Both the position numbers and the translations under genes were made by a program. This document shows, one piece after another, positions 2,241 to 64,000 of a stretch of DNA of 64,000 nucleotides. Source of the stretch: Flaccisagitta enflata (lineage: Eukaryota); NCBI GenBank assembly GCA_965153355.1, contig OZ231126.1, forward strand, positions 30,504,001 to 30,568,000, in the 5' to 3' direction. The first letter of the stretch is position 1. Each line of letters starts with the position of its first letter. Under the pieces are notes generated by a model that was not told where the DNA came from, searched no databases, and was given only the letters and a program-made list of their open reading frames with translations.

Positions 2241-4132
2241 TTTTGGGCAGCGGCCCCAAAGGGCCGATGTCCTGTAGGACACAGGGGGGAATTTTTGGGC
2301 AGCGGCCCCAAAGGGCCGATGTCCTGTAGGACACAGGGGGGAATTTCGAGACGTCCGTCCGCCCTTCCGTCCGTCCGTCCTTCCTTCCGTCCGTCCGTCC
2401 ATCCGTCCGTCCATCCGTCCGTCCCCCCCCTTGGCCATCGGGGGCCTCAATTTTGCTCTTTTAGGCCTGATTTTGGCCCTCTGAGCCATCAGAATAGGCT
2501 GTATAGCCCTTTCAGACCTCAATTTAGCCCTAGAGACCTTAAATCAGCTCTCCAGACATCATATCTGCCCTCCAGACCTCAAATTAGCCCTCCATACCCC
2601 TAATCCACCCTCCAGGCCTCACATCAGCTCTTTAGGCCTCAAATTTGTCCTCTGGGCCTCAAGCCTGCCCCTCAAACCTCAAATCTACTCTTTAGAACCT
2701 AATTTTGCCTTCGAGGCTTCAAAACCGCCTTCAATGACCTCTATCCATCTTCTCAGACCTAATATACCTCAGGACGTCTCGAAATTCCCCCCTGTGTCCT
2801 ACAGGACATCGGCCCTTTGGGGCCGCTGCCCTGCTCTCTCTCCACTATATCACTTAATCACTCCAAGCAGGGCATCGGGTACCGCTGACCATGTGCGATC
2901 CTTGGATGACTAGTTTTCTGTCCATTCGTCCCCCCTCATCAGGCCCCTCAGGCCTCAAATCTAGCCTCTGAGACCTCAAATCTGGTCTCTCAGGCCTCAA
3001 ATCCAGCCTCTCAGGCCTCAAATCCAGCCTCTCAGGCCTCAAATCCAGCCTCTCAGGCCTCACATCTAGCCTCTCAGGCCTCAATTCCAACCTCTCAGGC
3101 CTCAAACCTGGCCTCTCTGGCCTCAAACCTGGCCTTTCTGGCCTCAAATAAGGCTTCTCAGGCCTCAAACCTGGCTTCTGAGGCAGCAAACCTTGCCTCA
3201 AATCAGCTATCTAAGCCTCAATTTATTGCTATCAGGCTTCAAATCAGTCCTCAGACCTTTCAAGCCTTAATCCAGCTCTCTCAAGCCTCAAGTCAGCCCT
3301 CTCAAGCTTCAGATTGGCATTACCAGGCCTTACATTAGCCTTCTTAGACCTCAGTTTAGGCTCTTGAAGGCCTCTATAGCATCTCATCCACGTCTTCAGG
3401 CAGGACAAGCGAAAGACCCCCGGTGTTCTACAGGACTTTAACCCCTTCGTGGCCGCTGCCCTGCTTCCCCTCACTTCCATTCACAATCACTCAAAGCAGG
3501 GCAACGGGTATCGCTGACCACATACTGCCCTTGGGCAACCTGTTCTCCATCCACCCCCTCAAGCCTCAAGCCTTGAAGCCCAAAATCTAGCCTCGAAGCT
3601 CAAATCTAGCCTTCAAAGCTCAAAATCCAGCTTCCAAACTCAAATTCCAGCCCAAAATTTGGCCTTGAGGCTCAAATCCCAGCCTCAAATTTTACCAGCC
3701 TCAAAATTTAGCCTTGAGGCTCACATACCAGCCTCAAATTTTAGGCTAGAGACTCTAATTCCAGCTTCAAGGCTCAAATCCCAGCCTTGAGGCTCTTATC
3801 CCAGCCTTGTGGCTCAAATCCAAGCCTTGAGGCTCAAATCCCAGTCTCGAGACTCAATTCTCAGCCTTAAATCCCAGCCTCAAGACTCAAATCCCAACCT
3901 TGAGGCTTAAATCCCAACTTTGCGGCTCAAATCCTAGCTTTGAGACTAAAATCCCAACTTCAAGGCTCAAATCCTTGCAGCAAGGCTAAAATTCGAGCCT
4001 CAAGCTTCAAAACTTACTGAGCATAGGTCATAGGCCACTTCGGGGCCGCTGCCCAGGTCACCATCGAACTCGCATACGCAAACACAGGGGCAACGGGTAT
4101 CACTGACCATCTTACGCTTTTGCGACTATTTT
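2241..4132 (+). mobile_element. Cluster of three DINE-1/HINE-like (non-autonomous Helentron-like) elements with central ~21-bp minisatellites
   Basis: The first unit (~2241-2915) has T-run + subterminal repeat GGGCAGCGGCCCCAAAGGGCCGATGTCC, a (GTCC)n microsatellite, central tandem repeats, the inverted subterminal copy, hairpin GCCCTGCT..AGCAGGGC and a T-rich end. Two 5'-truncated units of related subfamilies follow (~2916-3544, ~3545-4132). Confidence 0.7.
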
Positions 4133-4271: not shown

Positions 4272-17564
<13,293 letters not shown>

Positions 17565-20376: not shown

Positions 20377-21585
20377 AATAGCAAAAGCGTTATATGATCA
20401 GCGGTACCCTTGCCCTGCCTAAGTGAGTTGTGGTTCAAGTTGAAAGGGGAGCAGGGCAGCGGCCCTCAAGGGGTCTATGACCTATGCTTTCACACATATG
20501 GGGGATTTTTTCCTTCTCTGACTTTTCCCCTCTGACTTTTTCCTTCTCTGACTTTTCCCCTCTGACTCAGATCCTAGCCTCAAGGCCCAAATCCCAGCCT
20601 TGAAGCCCACATCCCAACCTCAAGGCTCAAATCCCAGCCTTGAGGCCCAAATCCCAGCCCTGATGGTTTCATGGATGGGATTTGTACCTCGAGGCTGAAA
20701 TTTGAGCCTCAAGGTTAGACTGCGGGCCTCAAGGCTGCGATTTGGGCCTCAAGGTTGGGATTTGGGCCTCAAGTCTGGGATTTAGGCCTCAAAGATGAGT
20801 TTTGGGCCTCAAGGCTGGCATTTGAGCCTCAAGGCTGGGATTTAGGCCTCAAGGCTGGGATTTGGGCCTCAAGGCTGGGATTCGAGTCTCAAGCCTAGGA
20901 TTCGAGTCTCAAGCCTGGAATTTGGGCCTCGAGGCTAGGATCTGAGTCAGAAGGGGGGTATAACAGGTCGCCCAAGGGCAATATGAGGTTAGTGATACCC
21001 GTTGCCCTGCTTTGCATGGTTGTAAATTGAAATGAGAGGCAGGGCAGCGGCCCCAAAGGAGACGAAGTCCTGTAGAACACAGGGGGACTTTCGTTTTTCC
21101 GTCCGTCCGCCCCCCAGGCCCTCTCAGGCCTGAAATCTGCCCTCTCAGGCCTAAAATCTGCCCTCTCAGGCCTAAAATCTGCCCTCTCAGGCCTGAAATC
21201 TGCCCTCTCAGGCCGTGAATCTGAGGAGCAGATTTCAGGGCTGGGAGGGCAGATTTAAGGCCTGAGAGGACAGGTAACAGGCCAGAAAGGGCAATTTTCA
21301 GGCCTGAGAGGGAAGATTCAAGGCCTGAGATGGCAGATTTCAGGCCTGACAGGGCAGATTTCAGGCCTGAGAGGGCAGATTTTAGGCCTGAGAGGGCAGA
21401 TTGCAGGCCTGAGAGGGCCTTGGGGGGACGCACGGACGAACGGACGAACAAACGGACGGACGAACGAAAGTCCCCCTGTGTTCTACAGGACTTCATCCCA
21501 TTCGGGGCCGCTGCCCAAAACGGAAAAATCCCCCATATGTGTGAAAGCATAGGTCATCGATTCCTTCGGGGCCGCTGCCCAAAAA
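20377..21585 (-). mobile_element. HINE-like element (TAGTCGCAAAAGCG type) interrupted by a second subfamily copy (~20961-21520)
   Basis: The outer element resumes at 21521 with its terminal ..cccccatatgtgtgaaagcataggtcatcg..ggggccgctgcccaaaaa. The inner copy has its own inverted subterminal repeats and AGGCCTGAGAGGGCAGATTT repeats. Confidence 0.68.
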
Positions 21586-22841
21586 GTAGGTCGAAGGAAT
21601 GATTCCCAAATCGGGTGCGGATGGAGCATGGATAGGGGTAGTGATAACCAAAGCTAACCACCATTTTACGCCGAATAGCAAAGTTTACGAATGCATGGAC
21701 GGACGCACCCGCTAATAGGGCATGCCCGCCTTTAAGGCATGTAACCTACTGTCCCATGAGAGACTTTGTAGTTGTTTCTTAATTGGTAATAAGGCAGCTT
21801 CATTATAAGGCATTCTTTTGTTCAATCCCTTGAAATGCGCTCTAGCGAAGATCAACTGTAATTCGTAATTTTAATTGGTTAAGAACATTTTCAATCTAAA
21901 TTAAAGCCCTTCTTGGGGACCTCGCCTGTTAAATCATAAACAATTGAACATTTTGTAAGGAAAAAGAATCATGGATAATCTGGCTCATTGTCGTATGCTA
22001 TAAGGCTCTCTCAGCTCCAAAGATCTCTGACTCTATGAGAGGTTTTGTCCGTCAGTCCATCCGACCGTCCGTCCGTCAGTTGGGTTGTTGATGTTTGAGT
22101 TAAGAAATGGTCAATAGACGAAAAATCTTTGTCTGTAGTGTTGACAGATGTTGACAGATAGTTAATCTTTTTTGTAATATAGCCGACACATCGTTTTACC
22201 CAGGGGTACTGGTTTATAAGCTCTATTATCTCTGTCCCTGCCTTTATTTCGCACATTGTGTAATCGATATATTGATGAGATGAGATCGAGATGACTGACA
22301 TGGACTCTAAATCGACACCTTTGACTTTGCAGTAGATTTGTTAAGAGAAGGTCAACAAACTAAAGTGGATAGAGAAATTTCTTTCAAAAAAGTCATTTTC
22401 TTGAAAGAAATTGTCAAAAGATCGCTTATCGCTTATCATGTAACCTAAATTTTGCCTAATATGCGCGATGTTGCGCAATCAATTAGCCAGTTACTTTTTT
22501 TCCTCCCCCATTAGCTTATCTTTTGTATCCTTTTTTTTTTTTTTTTTTTTTTGTTATTGTCCTTTTTTTTCTTTTTCTTTCTTTTTTCATTCTTTTTCTT
22601 TCTTTTTTCCTTTCTTTTTCTTTGTTTTTTCTTCCTCTCTTTCTTTCTTCCTTTTTTTCTTTCTTTTTTTCGTTCTTTCGTTCTGGGTAGGTATCACCAC
22701 TAGGAAAATCGAACTGCTGAGAATTTTTCAAAAAATTAATTCCTACCAGTGGGATGAAAAAATCATCCCACTGGTGAGAATTTTCTTTTTTACAAATTCT
22801 CACCAATGAAAAGAATTAAATTCTCACCAGTGGGAAAGAGA

Positions 22842-24310
<1,469 letters not shown>

Positions 24311-24333
24311 GGAGAGAAGGAGAGAAGAAGAGA

Positions 24334-24399
<66 letters not shown>

Positions 24400-25450
24400 T
24401 ACAGACAAGAAACAGAAAAAAGAAAAAGAAAAAAAATCAGTAAAAAATGGTATCAAAGCCCCTTCCCACAGAACAAAAAATGATGAAAATGGTAGATTCA
24501 TTTTGCGCCAAAGCATGTGTAGTGTGTCTGTTATTCTATTCATTCATACAATATCTATCCTGGTGGATGTATAACCCTAAATGGCATTGTTAAGATTCTC
24601 TGAGATCAAAGGAAAAATTCCAAATCACGGGAACACCCCCATAAAGAAGAAGCTATAAAAATCCATTTCCAAGACTCATAATCAAAATCATTGTTTTGAG
24701 ATCCAAACCCCAGCAATAACGTCTAAATTTCATGTTTTAGGCTACAATCACACATATCTTTAAATTCAGCCAATACGTAGAGTCAAAATTTTCACTGAAA
24801 CGGTCGCTGCATCAATGGTTTTTTGTTGTGGACTAGTGACTCTATAAGAGGATTTGTCTGTCTGTCTGTCGGTCCGCTGGTCCTTCCATTGTTCTATCTG
24901 GGGTCATCAAGTTGGAAATTGTGAAAACAGGCATTTCCACTTCTGCTTATTCATCCGGGACTGGTATTGGCCATGTATCCGGCCTTGTTTCTTGGTAAAA
25001 GGTCAAAGGTTTACATATATACATATATACATATATACATATATACATATATACATATGCTTTTGTGTTTTGCATCTCCCAATCTACAGCCTAAAATAAA
25101 GCGTAAAAGATTTGATCCTGACCTTGGGTCTCATGTCTCCTTTTAAACTATGATCCTGACATGAAAACATTGAAAGTAGGCCCTTTCCTCCGTCTTCCTC
25201 CCCTTTCCTCCCCCTTCTTCCATTTCCTCCATTTTCTTCCCACTGGTGAGAATTTCTTCTCATAAAATTTATCACCAGTGCGAAATATTTTTTTCTTACC
25301 AGTGGGATGAATTTTCTTTCCCACTGGTGAGAATTTGATTTCATCCCACTGGTGAGAAAAAAATCCTTCCCACTGGAGAGAATTCCCCTTCGTTCTTTCT
25401 TTCTTTCGTTCTATCTTTCTTTTTTTTTCTGTCTTTCTTTTTTCTTTCAT

Positions 25451-25540
<90 letters not shown>

Positions 25541-25684
25541 TTTCTTTCTTTCTTTCTTCTCTCTTTCTTTCGTTCTTTATTTCTTTTTTCTTTCTTTTTT
25601 TCTTTCTTATTTTCTTTCTTTCGTTCTATCTTTCGTTCTTTATTTCTTTTTTCTTTCTTTTTTTTCTTTCTTTCTTTCTTTCGT

Positions 25685-25756
<72 letters not shown>

Positions 25757-26015
25757 TATTTCTTTCTTTCTTTATTTCTTTCTTTCTTTTTTTTCTTTCT
25801 TTGTTTTTTTCCCTTTTCCATTTTTTTGATGCGTCCTCGCATTTCTCTAAGAGGGCGTGTTAGTCCGTCCGTCCATCTCTCCGGAGGAAGGTCCATAACG
25901 TGAAATTTCTCTTCATTGATTCATTTCTCCTTTTTTTATCTTTATATCATATACCTAAAGAGGACGCATCTAATAGTCATCTCTTACTCATTCTCTCAGC
26001 TATCTGGCGCGAACA

Positions 26016-26112
<97 letters not shown>

Positions 26113-26533
26113 GCAAACAAACAAACAAACAAACAAACAAACAAACAAACAAACAAACAAACAAACAAACACACACCTGTAACTTGTATTCACGTGTTTT
26201 TCCTGCGACTTTACGTAAGCACTTGAAAGGGAGATAACAGAAAGCTTTAAAAATTTGACTCAACAGATAAAAAACATTTTGATGGGCTCAAAGTCTTTGG
26301 CATCAAGAATCACGAGATTTAGAAAAATGAATAAAAAGACCAAGAAATCAGATCCACCTCCTTATTACCTCTCACCGACCTGAAGAGAGAGAGGAGACAA
26401 TTAAGAAGCGCCTCTCCTATTCAAACTTTGGAGGACGAAACCCAAAAAATCAAAACCGGTTTTAAGAAACTTTATTCGGAAATTCCAAAAAAACATTTGA
26501 ATTTCAAAAAACTCCCAAGAAAAGTGGCTTAAA

Positions 26534-37045
<10,512 letters not shown>

Positions 37046-38598: not shown

Positions 38599-38862
38599 GA
38601 ATATATGCTTTACTGTATGAAATGTGCAACAAAAAGTATCTTATAAAAAATTTTTGAAGAAAAATGTTTTTCAAAATGAAAATGAAAATAAAAATAAACA
38701 AAACATTCAAAAGTTACTTATTCCTGTATAGTATATGCTTCCACTCATATACTCACCTATCCAATTTTAGGTACGACCTAATTTTAGTGGTTATTGAATA
38801 TCAAAACCTTTGGATAAGTGATTTTTATGCAGAAAACAAGACTTTTGTCTTACAATTAAACA
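38599..38862. repeat. Left copy of ~250-bp direct repeat flanking the PLE
   Basis: gaatatatg...atgaaatgtgcaacaaaaagtatc...tacaattaaaca recurs at ~42400-42647 with about a dozen differences, including small indels. Confidence 0.9.
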
Positions 38863-39195
38863 AAAAATTTTTCATGTATGCTATTGGGTTAGGGGATAAA
38901 AGTTAGCGCTGACTTCTGGCATTGACTGGGATAATCAATTCAGCAAGAGTTACATCTAATTGAAAAAAAGGAACTATGGGTGTCCGACGTCCTAGTGGCT
39001 ACCCTTCCTCTCAATTAAACAAAGGGGGTGGGACTTTGGACAATTTATACTAAATGTTTGTTAAAGGGAAATCTCAGTGATTGGAGGAAAGGGAATTCAT
39101 CTTCAAAGAAGATATATCATGGGATGATAGGTCACCATGAAGGGTAAAATTTACTTTCCCATATTTAGAAAAAAATCCAAGTTTTTGAATATTTT

Positions 39196-39310
39196 ACTAT
39201 ATCCAGTTTCTGGTCATCAGTTGGAGACCTGCACCCTAAAGTGAGTTTTGGTCCTTTAACTCCAATACTCAGGTGCAGGCGGACCCACCAAAAGGTGCCT
39301 TCGCTGGATA
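39196..39310 (-). ncRNA. Candidate structured RNA with hammerhead-like core in the PLE 3' UTR
   Basis: The minus strand reads UAUCCAG..CACC-UUUU-GGUG-GGUCC-G-CCUGCACC-UGAGU-A-UUGGAG-UUAAA-GGACC-AAA-ACUCA-..GGUGCAGG-U-CUCCAA-CUGAUGA-CCA-GAAAC-UGGAUA. It contains six complementary pairs of segments plus CUGAUGA/GAAA. PLEs are known to carry hammerheads, but the topology here is not canonical. Confidence 0.45.
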
Positions 39311-39505
39311 AAGATAAATACTCAAATATTTTGAAGTTAGAATTAAGATTATAATCTTTAGAGTAAAACAATGAAGATGTTCATTTAAGGCTTGCTATTG
39401 ATACAGTAATAGACATCAAATGACAATCAAAAGTCCAGAGAATAATGAGGAGAAGCCAATTGACTCACTCACTCACGAGGACTTCTGATAATCAATTAAG
39501 GCTCA

Positions 39506-42250
39506 TTACGGTAATATATCTTTGATAAAAATGTTGGTATCATTAATATCATATTTCAGTACAATACTGTTTCTACCTTTAAAAAAACGCAAACTAAGCC
39601 TTTTTAAATCTGCAAGTTTGTAACCCTGACTCAGCAGTCTCTCAGTTAAGTTTTTGCACTTAACCTTGAAATTCTGATAGCTAGAATTAATTCTTGCAAA
39701 TCTAATCATTTGACTATAGAATACTCCTAATGCTGACTTTTTAGGTATACAGCTATCCATAAAAGGGAAATTTACTATTTTGAAATTAAAATCATCCCTC
39801 TTATCATATATGGAAAAATCTAATAACCCATTTTCAGATTTAATCCTCAGGTCCAGATAAGAAACCTCCTTTGAATTAACAGATTCTGGCTTGATTTCTA
39901 ACTCTCTTGGATATATTTTATATATGTGCTCTCTGAACTCTGGGAAATTACCTACAAAAAGGTCATCTATGTATCTAGAGCACAAATTAAATTTTCTGGC
40001 CAGAACAATATTTTGCCTTGAAGTTTTCTCTACATAGTCTGCCTCATAGCTATATAATAAAAGGTTTGCTATGTCCTGACCTGAGTCCAACCCAATAGGA
40101 ATTCCTATTACCTGTTTATAAATATTCCTTCCAAATTTAACATAAATGTTATCTAATATGAATTCTAGAATTTCTTGCATATCTGTTACCCGGAAAGAGC
40201 AGCAATTTTTTCCTGCAGTTGTACTGAAATATGCCCTTTGCATGTTCACATTTATAAATTGTTTATTTTCCCTGCTATAGACCTTTTGGAAAATCTTAGC
40301 AAAAGTTCTAATAATTTCTGGATGCGGAAGCGCTGTATATAAAGTAGAAAAATCATATGTTTCCATATGTTGCATATCTTTACTTTTGATTTTATCCATG
40401 AATTCCAAGGAATTCTCTATTATCCAAAAATGATTCAAATCTGCTCTTTGAGACACTGTAAATGAATAATTTTTCATATGATTTAAAATGACCTTCAGAG
40501 CCCTTGAAAAATATTTAGATAATAGTTTGATACTGCAAGATTTTGATCCTGCTGTAAATCTACTGCCTATTGGGTTTTTATGCATTTTAGGAATCCAGTA
40601 AATAAGAGGGATATCTTTCATTTCATTTGGAACTTTTATGTTTTTTGACTTGGAAAAATTTATGATAATGTTATGAATGGTATCCACATCTTTATTTTCT
40701 GGTTTATAGGTTAAGTGTCCTGGTCTACTCAATTCATCTTTAATATTAGAAACATAATGTGACTTACATGTAAAGAGAATATTATTTTGTGCCTTATCAG
40801 TAACAGTTATGACATAAGATTCCCTTAATCTATCCAATTCTCTCTTTACATCTCCTTCAATTCTAAGATTCCAACTTCTCAATTAATGTTTACCAGACTC
40901 TATTTTCCTGTCTACAAGTTCAACTACTTTATTTTTCCATGAATCTAAGCAACTTCCATTGACATTATTATCTTCTGACATTTTTTTCTCTTTTGTTATC
41001 CATTTATCAATATAAGCATCCAGAAATGTTGTTATGATATTTCTATCCTCTTTCCAATTTATCCTTTGAGGTAACCTATACTTAGGTCCTTTCTTTATCA
41101 AATTTTTTTATGTTTCATTTTTTACTATGTCTAGGTTACCGGTTATGACATGACCATGATTTGGATCTTTAAATGGAGAATTATTGCAACTACAAAGTAA
41201 TCTATTATTCTCAAAATGGTCAATACCTTCTTCTGATAAAGTCTCTCTATAGTTAAAAAGTTTACCTGCAATACTTTTATTAAATCTATATCCAATGATT
41301 GGTGGTTCTTTATCATTGAAATAAATTGGTATTCTATTTACAACATCCTTGTTTCTAAGTATTGCACTGATGTTTATGAAATCCAGACCTTTATCTCTGA
41401 AATTCAGATGGTAAAAATCATTTCTTTTTGCTATTTCCACAGGTTTAAACAATCTCAGGTTAGCTATCATTTTAATCATATCTTTAAGTCGGACATCTAT
41501 TACAACAGGAGAATTTTCCACACTCTGAAGTAAAATTTGGAGGTCAACCCTTGGAACACTATACAAAAATGTTTTGAAAAAGTGTATATATCCCGGCTTA
41601 TTGGCTAACTCCCTGTGCTTATCTAGTACAAAATCTAGAGAAAAATCACTTTTAACTCTTAGTCTTTTAGGTTTCCTTTTCTTGTGTTTCCGTTTTCTCC
41701 TCCTCCTTCCGCCAAAATGTTGAAAAACCCCCTGTGAAGGATTAAAATCACCAATACCCTTTACTCTACAATTGAGACCAAAGGGATAGGCTGTTTGAAG
41801 AGTTGAAATCCAAAATTTCTCCCTTTCAAACCTGATTTTATCCTTTGCTCTTGCTTTCTCTACTTGTGATGAAAAGATATTTTCATCAGACTCACTCAAA
41901 ACAATTTTCTCAATTGGTATGATAATGCAGTTTGCAAGACCATGACAATTTTCTTGAAAATGTTTATGAACTAATTGTCCAGATTTGTTTGAATTAATCC
42001 TACTTCTGTGTCCATTGAATCTTATAAGTAAACGATATTTAGTTTCCCCGATGTACTGGAAACCACATAATTTACATTTCATTGGATAAATTATATTTTC
42101 TGATTTACAATTCAAAACATGTTCACCATTAATTGCAGGAAAATATTTTTTACCATTAGTGCTTGATTGAAAAAAATTAGTTTCTTCTAAATATGGGCAA
42201 GTAAGGCAAGTAGACACACCACATTTTTGTATTTTTTTGTACAAATCCAT
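39506..42250 (-). pseudogene. PLE GIY-YIG + reverse transcriptase ORF (915 codons) interrupted by two in-frame TAA stops
   Basis: ORFs 41108-42250, 40883-41101 and 39506-40882 share one frame. The stops are TAA at 41110-41108 (NET*KNLIKKGPKYR) and 40885-40883. There are no frameshifts. Confidence 0.88.
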
Positions 42251-42399
42251 TTTGTTGTTGTTTCAAAAAGAATAAATGAGCAATGTGACAATGTTTTAAG
42301 AAAAACAAGTGTGACACTTTGTCGAAAAAACATGCCCTTAAAGGTAAGAATCGAGAACCACCTTAAGGGGGTCGCCGGCATTCCAAACCAAGGCACTTG

Positions 42400-42647
42400 A
42401 ATATATGAAATGTGCAACAAAAAGTATCTTACAAAAAATTTTTGAAGAAAAACGTTTTTCAAAATCAACTGAAAATCTAAAAATAAACAAAACATTCAAA
42501 AGTCACTTATTCCTGTATAGTACATGCTTCTACTCATATACTCACCTATCCAATTTTAGGTACGACCTAATTTTAGTGGTTAATGAATATCAAAACCTTT
42601 GGATAAGTAATTTTTATGAAACAAGACTTTTGTCTTACAATTAAACA
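42400..42647. repeat. Right copy of ~250-bp direct repeat flanking the PLE
   Basis: Matches 38599-38862. Confidence 0.9.
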
Positions 42648-47169: not shown

Positions 47170-47993
47170 AGGGCTGGTTTCAGGCCTGAAATGCTTGATT
47201 TTTAGCCTGACAAGGCTGATTGAGGGTATTAGACAGCTAATTTTTGAGCTGATTTTGGGCCTGATTTTGGTCTGAGGAGGCTGATTTTGGGCCTGAGAGG
47301 GCTGATTATGGGCCTAGGAGGGTTGAGTTTTGGGCCTGAGAGGGCTGATTTTAGGTTTGAAAGGGCCGCTTTGGGCTTGAGAGGCCTGATTTGGGGCCTG
47401 AGAGGGGCCTGGGGGGGGGACGTACGGATGTCTGGAAATTCACCCCTGTGTCCTACAGGACATCGGCCCTTTGGGGCCACTGCCCAAAAAGACACACGCA
47501 CAAATAGTCACAAAAGCGTTAGATGGTCAGCGGTACCCATGCCCTGCCTTAGTAGGTTGTGGTTGAAGTTGAGGGGGGAGCAGGGCAGTGGCCCCGAAGG
47601 GGTCGTTGACCTATGCTTTCACACAGGGGAATTTTCTCCTCCTTTTCCTCCTCCCCCTCCCCCTACCTCCAGGCCTATATCTCAGCCTAAAAGCCCATAT
47701 CCCAGCCTCAAGGCCCAAATCCCAGTCTTGAGGCCAAAATCCCTTGAGGCTGGAATTTGGGCCTCAAAGATAGGATTTTGGCTGTAAGATGAGATTTGGG
47801 CCTTAAGGTTGGGATTTGGACCTCAAGACTGGGATTTGGGCCTCAAGGCTGGGATATGCACCTCGAGGCTGAGATAAGGGCCTGGAGGTAGGGGGGGGGG
47901 GGGTACGGAGAAGGAGGAGGAGGAGGTGGAGGAGGAGGAGGAGGGAGAAAATTCCTCTGTGAAAGCATAGGTCACTCGACCCTTCGCCGCTGC

Positions 47994-61922: not shown

Positions 61923-64000
<2,078 letters not shown>

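What the first reader, a model, noticed from the sequence alone, without database searches (positions are those of the whole stretch)
39196..39310. Pseudoknotted, hammerhead-like RNA module in the 3' UTR of the Penelope-like element
Seen: in ~115 nt of the minus strand there are six complementary segment pairs (UAUCCAG/CUGGAUA closing the domain, CACC/GGUG, GGUCC/GGACC, CCUGCACC/GGUGCAGG, UGAGU/ACUCA, UUGGAG/CUCCAA), several crossing each other. A GUA triplet sits directly before UUGGAG, whose partner CUCCAA sits directly before CUGAUGA-CCA-GAAAC, as expected for hammerhead stem I and the cleavage site. Known: PLEs usually carry minimal hammerheads. Inference: this is a hammerhead variant with almost no stem II embedded in a pseudoknot or switch, or an unrelated structured RNA. 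It does not fit type I/II/III cleanly.
Basis: partly seen in the sequence, partly recalled or inferred. Interest (0 to 1): 0.72.

Follow-up and report, generated by a model that had tools for sequence, protein, structure and literature searches.

The report
Rearranged hammerhead ribozyme in Naiad retrotransposon
The structured RNA after the gene of this Naiad-type Penelope-like retrotransposon is a hammerhead ribozyme whose parts lie in an order not described before, in a group of elements said to lack hammerheads; this copy carries a change at a catalytic base and is probably dead.

Summary
The module is a hammerhead core. It has the CUGANGA box, a U-H cleavage site at 39266, and stems I, II and III. 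A fourth helix ties the far ends of stems I and II together, as in the type-SGC permuted hammerheads of Eckert et al. 2023.

It differs from every described type. The stem II strand that should follow the CUGANGA box lies upstream instead. The gap is bridged by a closing helix and a small hairpin.

The real one follows stem II at 39249-39246. In this copy it begins with A instead of the catalytic G. Nearly all other copies in four sequencing runs have G there.

The same architecture lies 105-574 nt after the stop codon in five metagenomic Naiad-like families. It also appears in two published Naiad consensus sequences. No Rfam model detects it, and the papers searched do not describe it. Self-cleavage is inferred, not shown.

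The parts
39304..39310 (-). It closes the module.
   Evidence: A closing helix is predicted in 6 of 6 modules folded. It was found in 6 of 6 by script, with 1-288 of 2000 shuffles doing as well.
39298..39303 (-). Internal loop of helix a (39303-39300) and a 2-bp proximal part a' (39299-39298). The a' part pairs with 39213-39212, directly after the CUGANGA box.
   Evidence: Most other copies read a different base at 39303 in one run.
39286..39297 (-). It ends directly before the first base of stem II.
   Evidence: A hairpin ending 0-1 nt before stem II occurs in 6 of 6 modules. The stem changes on both sides between the window and L004.
39281..39285 (-). Stem II, the strand that normally follows the CUGANGA box (positions 10.x).
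   Evidence: Three of 5 pairs change on both sides among 3 close relatives. The first pair is G-C in 6 of 6.
39272..39280 (-). It ties the far ends of stems I and II together.
   Evidence: It corresponds to the extra stem of type-SGC ribozymes as described in the text read.
39267..39271 (-).
   Evidence: The U-A first pair is invariant in 6 of 6.
39266..39266 (-). Cleavage-site nucleotide H17, which is A here. The predicted cut lies between 39266 and 39265.
   Evidence: This rests on position relative to stems III and I. Cleavage was not tested.
39260..39265 (-).
   Evidence: Three of 6 pairs change on both sides among close relatives.
39255..39259 (-). A 5-nt linker running from the far end of stem I straight into stem II.
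   Evidence: The linker is 1-5 nt in the six modules. Type-SGC has 'typically three'.
39250..39254 (-). Stem II, the strand that precedes the GAAA box (positions 11.x; other half of pair 3).
39247..39249 (-). Positions 12-14 of the GAAA box. In this copy position 12 (39249) is A, not G.
   Evidence: Six of 6 related loci have G there. Other copies read G-equivalent C on the + strand. By depth this is 19916 of 20631 in X8, 82111 of 82727 in X13, 23.8 of 23.8 in X9 RNA contigs, and 12.1 of 12.1 in X1.
39242..39246 (-). Stem III, the strand that begins with A15.1 (other half of pair 5).
39236..39241 (-). A 6-nt one-sided bulge between stem III and helix Y.
   Evidence: The bulge is 4-6 nt on this strand in the close family. 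It lies on the other strand in L021 and L025.
39227..39235 (-). Helix Y, 3' strand (other half of pair 4).
39221..39226 (-). Stem I, the strand directly 5' of the CUGANGA box (other half of pair 6).
39214..39220 (-). CUGANGA box (core positions 3-9).
   Evidence: Among the six modules only position 7 varies, being U in 5 and C in 1.
39200..39213 (-). Helix a, 3' strand.
39506..42250 (-). Single reading frame of the element, with an N-terminal GIY-YIG-like part followed by reverse transcriptase. It is broken by two in-frame TAA codons at 41110-41108 and 40885-40883.
   Evidence: Pfam gives only a weak GIY-YIG match at E = 1.1.
38608..38862 (-). 3' copy of the terminal direct repeat (pseudo-LTR). 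Its partner is at 42396-42647.
   Evidence: 92.6% identity over 257 columns.

Best explanation
The module at 39310-39200 on the minus strand is the family-typical ribozyme domain of a Naiad-type Penelope-like element. It is a hammerhead whose three core blocks lie in the order site block, GAAA block, CUGANGA block, as in the type-SGC permutation. A short linker joins stems I and II, and a helix Y ties their other strands together.

One further rearrangement sets it apart. The stem II strand that should directly follow the CUGANGA box lies at the 5' side of the domain. The chain leaves the core after A9 into closing helix a. It returns through hairpin b straight into G10.1. This would make a four-way junction at that point and leave the stem II-core stack intact.

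In intact copies the RNA is expected to cut itself after H17, between 39266 and 39265, about 240 nt after the stop codon. In head-to-tail or pseudo-LTR arrangements this would trim read-through transcripts to unit length or free the downstream copy.

The window copy has A in place of the catalytic G12, plus two premature stop codons. It is most likely a dead relic.

Shown here: the sequence, the helices, their covariation, the conserved core, the position in the 3' UTR, and G at position 12 in other copies. Inferred: the four-way-junction geometry, self-cleavage, and the biological role.
For: 1. Every hammerhead core element is present and adjacent to the right helix.

2. A tight structural descriptor finds the same architecture in 6 of 80 metagenomic loci that encode relatives of the RT. 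These are L002, L003, L004, L019, L021 and L025, making five distinct sequences. All are on the RT strand. There were 0 hits in 40 shuffled copies of all 80 loci. A looser version gave 2 hits in 20 shuffles.

3. All six loci have the EN-then-RT order. The module lies 105-574 nt after the stop in five of them. In L003 it lies about 725 nt upstream of the ORF, as expected for a tandem or pseudo-LTR copy.

4. Across six modules, 23 of 25 pair positions change on both sides, and 1 of 142 cells is unpaired. The only invariant pairs are G10.1-C11.1 and A15.1-U16.1, which are the pairs kept in hammerheads.

5. A structure-blind alignment of the three close relatives gives 98.6% paired cells and 8 of 25 compensatory pairs, with 0 of 500 shuffles matching either.

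6. Helix a and hairpin b were not part of the descriptor. They are present in 6 of 6 modules.

7. Other genomic and RNA-contig copies have G at position 12.

8. Two published Naiad consensus sequences, Naiad_Plae and Naiad-4_Dst, show the same order of parts when read by eye. Craig et al. flagged Naiad-4_Dst only as 'HHR_half_core'.

9. Type-SGC ribozymes with the same S-G-C order and tethering helix self-cleave in vitro.
Against: No cleavage data exist. All runs found were contigs, which cannot show RNA ends.

No hammerhead is known with an insertion between A9 and G10.1. Eckert et al. state that known alignments have at most one or two inserted nucleotides next to the box. Activity of this topology is therefore unproven.

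Stem III joins helix Y with no linker on one strand. This is geometrically awkward. The same puzzle is noted for some type-SGC ribozymes.

The distant examples were found with a descriptor that demands the boxes and the pairing. Their conservation is therefore partly by construction.

The module is not universal. By my count, only 5 of 33 Naiad-like loci with at least 29% identity and at least 400 nt after the ORF carry it. In the same set, 23 of 33 have no CUGANGA box within about 1400 nt after the RT match.

No Rfam model matches.

For another PLE, hammerhead cleavage was not needed for in vitro insertion, and no RNA-seq ends were found at the site.
Confidence: 0.7

Rival explanations
1. The module is a conserved structured 3' UTR element that no longer cleaves, or never did. 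For example, it could be a binding or priming platform for the element's RT/EN protein, built on a hammerhead-like scaffold.
For: The element's RT must recognise its own RNA. For a Poseidon PLE, ribozyme-dead mutants still inserted in vitro and no reads ended at the site. The split after A9 has no tested precedent. Many Naiad-like loci do without any CUGANGA box.
Against: All catalytic positions are kept across lineages whose RT is only 30-65% identical. Meanwhile every helix changes by compensation. The only variable box position is the one that is free in hammerheads. A purely structural role would not need G5, G8, G12 or a non-G at the site.
Confidence: 0.2
2. It is a hammerhead whose GAAA box is the GAAAC three bases after the CUGANGA box, so stem II is almost absent. 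The other pairs act as a pseudoknot or switch around it.
For: The letters are there in the window and in L002.
Against: The stretch differs in L004 and is absent in L019, L021 and L025. In all six modules it lies within helix a or its loop. A second GAAA position with a covarying stem II in front of it and stem III behind it is conserved in 6 of 6 relatives.
Confidence: 0.03
3. It is a chance collection of short complementary words next to a chance CUGANGA box.
For: Pairs of 4-7 bases and one heptamer are individually expected in a 64-kb AT-rich window. A weaker descriptor hit occurs inside the ORF near 41889.
Against: See the covariation and shuffle controls. The position and strand recur in relatives. 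The family is kept at high copy number in two runs of one organism.
Confidence: 0.02
4. It is a SECIS element, as described in the 3' UTR of selenoprotein-encoding Naiads.
For: Craig et al. report SECIS elements just after the stop codon in four Naiad families.
Against: Both in-frame stops here are TAA, not TGA. By eye I found no SECIS core quartet in the hairpin. No Rfam SECIS hit appears at E <= 10.
Confidence: 0.01

Closest known systems
Type-SGC hammerhead ribozymes (HRIMA-1 motif and variants; Eckert, Friedrich, Weinberg and Weinberg, NAR 2023, PMC10085705). I read sections 13, 15 and 18 part 1 and some passages; the figures were not seen.
   Same: The block order is site, GAAA, CUGANGA. 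A short linker runs from stem I directly into stem II. An extra helix joins the other strands of stems I and II. The core helices cross one another. The far end of stem III connects to that extra helix with few or no nucleotides.
   Different: In type SGC the stem II strand follows the CUGANGA box directly and the RNA ends after the extra helix. Here that strand and one strand of the extra helix lie upstream of the site block. The result is a circular permutation of type SGC opened inside block C. The opening is bridged by helix a and hairpin b.

Type-SGC RNAs were found only in metatranscriptomes, beside hairpin ribozymes, and not in genomes of known organisms. This module is DNA-encoded in an animal-type retrotransposon.
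Minimal type I hammerheads of Penelope/Poseidon, Neptune and other PLEs (Cervera and de la Pena 2014; Lunse et al. 2017). Both are recalled; only their reference entries were seen.
   Same: They share the host class of elements and the catalytic core. The location suits processing of tandem or pseudo-LTR transcripts.
   Different: Those have nested type I connectivity with a tiny stem III and act as dimers (recalled). This one has a 4-7 bp stem III in the metagenomic modules, crossing helices and two extra helices. It lies in the 3' UTR of the N-terminal-EN clade, which is reported to lack canonical hammerheads.
'HHR_core' and 'HHR_half_core' notes for Naiads in Craig et al. 2021 (PMC8557442). 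I read passages, the metadata sheet and parts of the consensus FASTA.
   Same: The authors saw a CUGANGA box in Naiad 3' UTRs, with GAAA either 7-17 nt away or 35-50 nt away on either side. They stated that these fit no stem-loop descriptor. Naiad-4_Dst, flagged half_core, has the architecture described here.
   Different: No fold, helices, cleavage site or link to permuted hammerheads is given in what I read. Naiad_Plae, which also has the architecture, is not flagged at all.
Discontinuous hammerhead in mammalian CLEC2 3' UTRs (Martick et al. 2008; recalled, not read here).
   Same: It is a hammerhead embedded in the 3' UTR of a protein-coding transcript, with unusual spacing of its parts.
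   Different: That one is a nested type III with a very large insertion in a loop. No core strand is interrupted.

Membership tests
Hammerhead ribozyme (core) | CUGANGA box directly 3' of one strand of stem I | tested here: met
   The box is at 39220-39214 and stem I is at 39226-39221. The same holds in 6 of 6 related modules.
Hammerhead ribozyme (core) | GAAA box between stem II and stem III, in this copy | tested here: not met
   Position 12 (39249) is A on the RNA strand.
Hammerhead ribozyme (core) | GAAA box between stem II and stem III, in the family | tested here: met
   Six of 6 loci have G. At least 96% of depth in X8 and 99% in X13 reads the G-equivalent base. All laid depth in X9 and X1 does so.
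Hammerhead ribozyme (core) | Cleavage site U-H (H not G), with the U paired to the last A of the GAAA box | tested here: met
   The site is at 39267-39266. The U-A pair is invariant in 6 of 6. H is A in 3, C in 2 and U in 1. The descriptor excluded G for the distant ones.
Hammerhead ribozyme (core) | Three helices flanking the boxes, supported by covariation; G10.1-C11.1 kept | tested here: met
Hammerhead ribozyme (core) | Site-specific self-cleavage | not testable with these tools
   Only contigs were available, so no RNA ends could be seen.
Hammerhead ribozyme (Rfam models) | Match to a curated covariance model | tested here: not met
   There were 0 matches at gathering score in the window. 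No ribozyme family appears at E <= 10 in 38700-39800 or in L002, L004, L021 and L025.
Hammerhead types I, II, III | Nested three-way junction with one open stem | tested here: not met
   Stems I, II and III all cross one another.
Type-SGC hammerhead | Blocks in the order S, G, C; short stem I to stem II linker; extra helix joining the other strands of I and II | tested here: met
Type-SGC hammerhead | Block C uninterrupted, with the stem II strand directly after the CUGANGA box | tested here: not met
   The box is followed by helix a. The covarying stem II strand is at 39285-39281, upstream of the site.
Naiad clade of Penelope-like elements | N-terminal GIY-YIG endonuclease, then RT, in one ORF | tested here: inconclusive
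   Order and homology are clear. There are 942 RT homologues at E <= 1e-10 among 4288 candidates, some carrying precomputed PF00078 or PF01541. The same order occurs in relatives. Pfam itself finds nothing in the RT part and gives GIY-YIG only at E = 1.1.
Naiad clade of Penelope-like elements | CxC motif in the linker, and DKA in place of DKG | tested here: met
   Both are visible in the translations. They are named as diagnostic in the passage read.
Naiad clade of Penelope-like elements | Pseudo-LTRs from partial tandem insertion | tested here: met
   42396-42647 matches 38608-38862 at 92.6%.
SECIS element | In-frame UGA codons in the ORF plus a SECIS core in the 3' UTR | tested here: not met
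   The in-frame stops are TAA. There is no Rfam hit.

The most novel reading that the evidence does not exclude
Naiad Penelope-like elements, reported to lack hammerheads, in fact carry an active hammerhead of a connectivity outside all six block permutations considered so far. It is a type-SGC-like fold, circularly permuted so that the core strand is interrupted between A9 and G10.1 and re-joined through a four-way junction. It would be the first non-circularly permuted ribozyme encoded in the DNA of known eukaryotic mobile elements. It is spread across several animal phyla and can reach very high copy number.
Probability: 0.55. Interest if true: 0.9.

Novelty: new variant of a known kind. 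Interest (0 to 1): 0.8.

Why it matters
It would resolve an oddity in the PLE literature, namely that the most abundant PLE clade apparently does without the ribozyme found in the others. It would extend the known topologies of the hammerhead fold beyond the assumption that the three core blocks cannot be interrupted. It would move non-circular RNA permutations from anonymous metatranscriptome RNAs into genomes, where copies, hosts and expression can be studied. It also shows why descriptor and Rfam searches miss such ribozymes, and it yields a concrete descriptor for finding more. Finally, the window copy is a natural position-12 variant that could serve as a ready negative control.

Tried and rejected
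**Rfam.** The gathering-score scan of the whole window gave nothing. The E <= 10 scan of 38700-39800 gave four weak non-ribozyme matches. Four intact relatives gave nothing.

**Genome and earlier notes.** No whole genome is held. Earlier notes of the scan held nothing.

**Self-comparison.** The module is not duplicated in the window; only the 255-bp terminal repeat is. The repeat finder output was dominated by microsatellites and did not help.

**MAFFT.** The alignment of six modules misaligned the three distant ones. In the three-sequence alignment the helix a and hairpin b region was shifted. Only stems I, II, III and Y were therefore counted with the tool.

**Covariance model R1.** It was built from the three close modules. 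It found only window, L002, L003 and L004 at E < 1e-21. Five further matches at E 0.56-5.6 are partial and were judged chance. It did not find L019, L021 or L025.

**L005.** It passes the loose descriptor. However, it has four G-U pairs in stem I, long insertions and no hairpin b. It was left out of all counts.

**Other CUGANGA boxes downstream of RT genes.** Those in L010, L016, L030, L032, L033, L041, L064 and L066 show no matching helices by eye.

**Supplement of Craig et al.** Motif look-ups hit only coding regions or Chlamys elements. The header look-up returned the protein FASTA, not the DNA. Part 8 showed three further cases:
- Naiad_Bfor has an S-G arrangement with an upstream stem II strand and a long helix Y. 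Its stem I is only about 2 bp, so it was not counted.
- Naiad_Mley shows no CUGANGA box in its 3' UTR.
- Naiad-1_Chem shows no CUGANGA box in its 3' UTR either.

I read only parts 1 and 8 and passages of this 53-part file. The PDF supplementary figures could not be read. Most published Naiad consensus sequences remain unchecked.

**SECIS idea.** Rejected because the in-frame stops are TAA.

**Steric argument.** I reasoned that all helices cannot coexist in a monomer. I set this aside because Eckert et al. report the same zero-linker connection in ribozymes that cleave.

**Pfam.** No family at E <= 0.01 for either half of the ORF.

**Read laying.** No places where molecules begin or end were reported, and contigs could not show them.

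Full report
**What is in the sequence**

The G-U-A triplet ends at 39266 and the CUGANGA box is at 39220-39214. Nested folding of 39196-39310 gives -40 kcal/mol with z = -2.92, and 2 of 200 shuffles fold as well. Pairs 3 and 6 cross them. Pairs this short are individually expected by chance, so the case rests on relatives.

**Context**

The module lies about 220 nt after the stop codon (39508-39506) of one long minus-strand frame, 42250-39506. The first half of that frame has a GIY-YIG-like motif and a CxC motif. The second half is a reverse transcriptase with DKA. The frame is broken by two TAA codons at 41110-41108 and 40885-40883.

A 255-bp direct repeat, 42396-42647 and 38608-38862 at 92.6%, flanks the unit like a pseudo-LTR. 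The module itself is not repeated in the window.

The RT half has 942 homologues at E <= 1e-10 among 4288 candidates. Almost all are from metagenome assemblies, and the named ones are bivalve hypothetical RT proteins at 39% identity. Pfam itself recognises neither half at E <= 0.01 and gives GIY-YIG only at E = 1.1. The domain order, the CxC and DKA motifs and the pseudo-LTR are the features Craig et al. 2021 give for Naiad elements (passages).

**Known RNA families**

No Rfam family reaches its gathering score anywhere in the window. At E <= 10 on 38700-39800 there are four weak matches, none a ribozyme. Four intact relatives give nothing either.

**Relatives**

An alignment of 19 RT homologues was used to scan metagenome contigs. 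It matched 255 stretches, of which 185 were confirmed and 80 loci were kept.

I wrote a descriptor for the parts in the order seen in the window:
- stem II strand, helix Y strand, stem III strand, U-H, stem I strand
- a short linker
- stem II strand, GAAA, stem III strand, helix Y strand, stem I strand, CUGANGA

The tight form requires stem I >= 5, II >= 5, III >= 4, Y >= 6 with at most one mismatch, and a linker <= 8. It hits 6 of the 80 loci: L002, L003, L004, L019, L021 and L025. L003 and L004 carry the same module. All hits are on the RT strand. It hits nothing in 40 shuffled copies of all 80 loci on both strands. A looser form gave 4 real hits and 2 hits in 20 shuffles.

All six loci have the EN-then-RT order. 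The module lies 105-574 nt after the stop codon in five. In L003 it lies about 725 nt before the ORF, the spacing expected if the upstream partial copy of a tandem includes it.

The module is not universal. By my count from the table, 33 loci have at least 29% identity and at least 400 nt beyond the ORF. Of these, 5 carry the module, and 23 have no CUGANGA box within about 1400 nt after the RT match.

**Covariation**

Across the six modules (window, L002, L004, L019, L021, L025), 25 pair positions are present in at least four sequences. Of these, 23 show a change on both sides, and 1 of 142 cells is not a standard pair. The two positions that never vary are the first pair of stem II (G-C) and the first pair of stem III (U-A). 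These are G10.1-C11.1 and U16.1-A15.1 of the hammerhead. In the CUGANGA box only position 7 varies.

The distant modules were selected by a descriptor that demands boxes and pairing. This count is therefore partly by construction, and the shuffle controls and the recurring position carry the weight.

An independent check needs no descriptor. MAFFT aligned the window with L002 and L004, whose RT is 62-65% identical. On that alignment the tool counts 98.6% of 71 cells paired and 8 of 25 pairs changed on both sides. These are 3 of 5 in stem II, 3 of 6 in stem I and 2 of 9 in helix Y. None of 500 shuffles reaches these values, and slid controls pair at 25-47%.

Two helices that were not in the descriptor also recur. 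One is a closing helix a, whose proximal pairs start 0-1 nt after the CUGANGA box. The other is hairpin b, which ends 0-1 nt before stem II. Both are present in 6 of 6 modules by script. For helix a, 288, 22, 8, 1, 105 and 71 of 2000 shuffles do as well. Both are also predicted in 6 of 6 minimum-energy folds, with z from -1.15 to -5.98.

It lies in the internal loop and first pair of helix a (39210-39206). It is altered in L004 and absent in L019, L021 and L025.

The conserved GAAA position is elsewhere. There the window reads A at 39249 where all six related loci read G.

I laid contigs of four runs on 38900-39600 at 80% likeness. The other copies read the G-equivalent base at 39249:

| Run | Type | G-equivalent depth / total | Contigs |
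|---|---|---|---|
| X8 | DNA, organism A | 19916 / 20631 | 22 |
| X13 | DNA, organism A | 82111 / 82727 | 32 |
| X9 | RNA contigs | 23.8 / 23.8 | 2 |
| X1 | DNA | 12.1 / 12.1 | 3 |

The window also differs from the majority at 39239, which is in the bulge. At 39303, in the loop of helix a, it differs from the majority in X8 but not in X13. Forty further differences on the laid stretch were not shown.

This copy therefore carries a private change at G12, the catalytic general base of hammerheads (recalled knowledge). It also has two premature stops. I read it as a dead copy of a family that is very abundant in organism A. RNA contigs span the module (X9, record 32, 39120-39600), but contigs cannot show cleavage.

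**Comparison with what is known**

Craig et al. 2021 state that Naiads lack canonical hammerheads. They add that some have the catalytic core without fitting any stem-loop descriptor, marked HHR_core. Eight have the two halves 35-50 nt apart, marked HHR_half_core.

In their consensus FASTA, two sequences show the same order of parts as the window when read by eye, including helix a and hairpin b. One precedes Naiad_Dcar; by the order of both the table and the protein file it is Naiad_Plae, which is not flagged. The other precedes Naiad_Ppla; it is Naiad-4_Dst, identified by matching its coding text to the protein record, and it is flagged half_core.

Eckert et al. 2023 divide the hammerhead into three blocks, S, G and C. 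They describe validated non-circular permutations, type SGC and type CSG. Type SGC has a roughly 3-nt link from stem I into stem II and an extra stem joining the other sides of stems I and II. The window module has that order, that link and that extra stem, which is my helix Y.

Eckert et al. assume the blocks are never interrupted. They note that known alignments have at most one or two inserted nucleotides next to the CUGANGA box. Here block C is split. The box is followed by helix a. The covarying stem II strand lies upstream, followed by helix Y and the S block.

Formally this is type SGC circularly permuted with the opening between A9 and G10.1. Helix a' and hairpin b abut without linker. 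The simplest geometry is therefore a four-way junction in which a' stacks on b and stem II stays stacked on the core. This geometry is my inference.

I worried that stem III and helix Y, joined without a linker on one strand, cannot coexist with stems I and II. Eckert et al. voice the same concern for some type-SGC ribozymes, which nevertheless cleave. Their permuted ribozymes were not found in genomes of known organisms, apart from one doubtful bacterial type-GCS candidate.

**Literature searches**

| Search terms | Papers found |
|---|---|
| 'Penelope-like' + 'Naiad' + 'hammerhead' | 4 |
| 'type-SGC' | 1 |
| 'Penelope-like' + 'hammerhead' + 'permut' | 11 |
| 'hammerhead' + 'Penelope-like' + 'pseudoknot' | 5 |

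None of these describes this fold in Naiads. The library lacks most subscription journals.

**How it most likely works**

In intact copies the RNA folds into the permuted hammerhead and cuts itself after H17. PLEs insert as partial tandems. A ribozyme in the upstream partial copy, as in L003, would free the downstream copy's RNA from upstream transcript. Two ribozymes would give unit-length RNA.

This role is inferred by analogy with other PLEs, and it is uncertain even there. For a Poseidon element, ribozyme-dead mutants inserted normally in vitro, and no RNA-seq reads ended at the site. The main rival is that the module is kept as a protein-binding scaffold. The conservation of every catalytic base while all helices drift argues against this, but only a cleavage assay can settle it.

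**Verdict**

The feature is a new variant of a known kind, and its activity is untested.

Noticed in passing
L048, L049, L050, L052, L056, L061, L063, L068, L071, L072, L074, L077, L079, L080 (about 300 nt after the RT match): A distant PLE family, 24-31% identical in RT and mostly on long contigs, also has a site block, a GAAA block and a CUGANGA box in S-G-C order. Its stem III has 8 bp and its stem I has 5 bp. A helix encloses stem I's strand and the box. A second CUGAGGA box lies about 150-180 nt downstream in most members. The partner of stem II is unclear, because the candidates are G-U rich and the family varies too little to test.
   Followed up: partly
window 39311-39444: Contigs in X8, X13 and X9 join 39310 directly to 39444-39446. 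Subfamilies therefore differ by a 133-135-nt indel that abuts the first base of the module.
   Followed up: no
window 39092-39139: Summed contig depth is about 5-10 times that of the neighbouring bins in X8, X13 and X9. This short stretch of the 3' region seems to be shared with a more abundant repeat.
   Followed up: no
window 39241 (loose ends in X8, X13, X9): One contig type matches the 3' half of the module up to 39241. It then continues into a variant GAAA-block remnant followed by a (TA)n tract. This looks like a 5'-truncated copy inserted in a TA microsatellite, which is the Naiad target preference noted by Craig et al.
   Followed up: no
window about 41780-41890, minus strand, inside the ORF: The loose descriptor also hits a CUGANGA box within the endonuclease-coding region, with AU-rich helices and a 49-nt linker and no helix Y. 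I judged it chance.
   Followed up: no
window 2890-4020, 10070-17400, 20450-26300, 30270-31570, 34700-35120, 47260-47750, 62370-62620: The window is unusually rich in microsatellites and in 8-, 9-, 12-, 20-, 21- and 29-nt tandem arrays, including long (CA)n tracts. Several arrays recur in both orientations.
   Followed up: no
L019 2880-4056: The ORF continues about 390 codons beyond the end of the RT match before its stop codon. This Naiad-like element therefore has a C-terminal extension.
   Followed up: no
window 39506-42250 (P0001, P0002): Pfam-A finds no RT domain in a protein that has 942 clear RT homologues. Naiad RTs evidently escape the curated model.
   Followed up: partly
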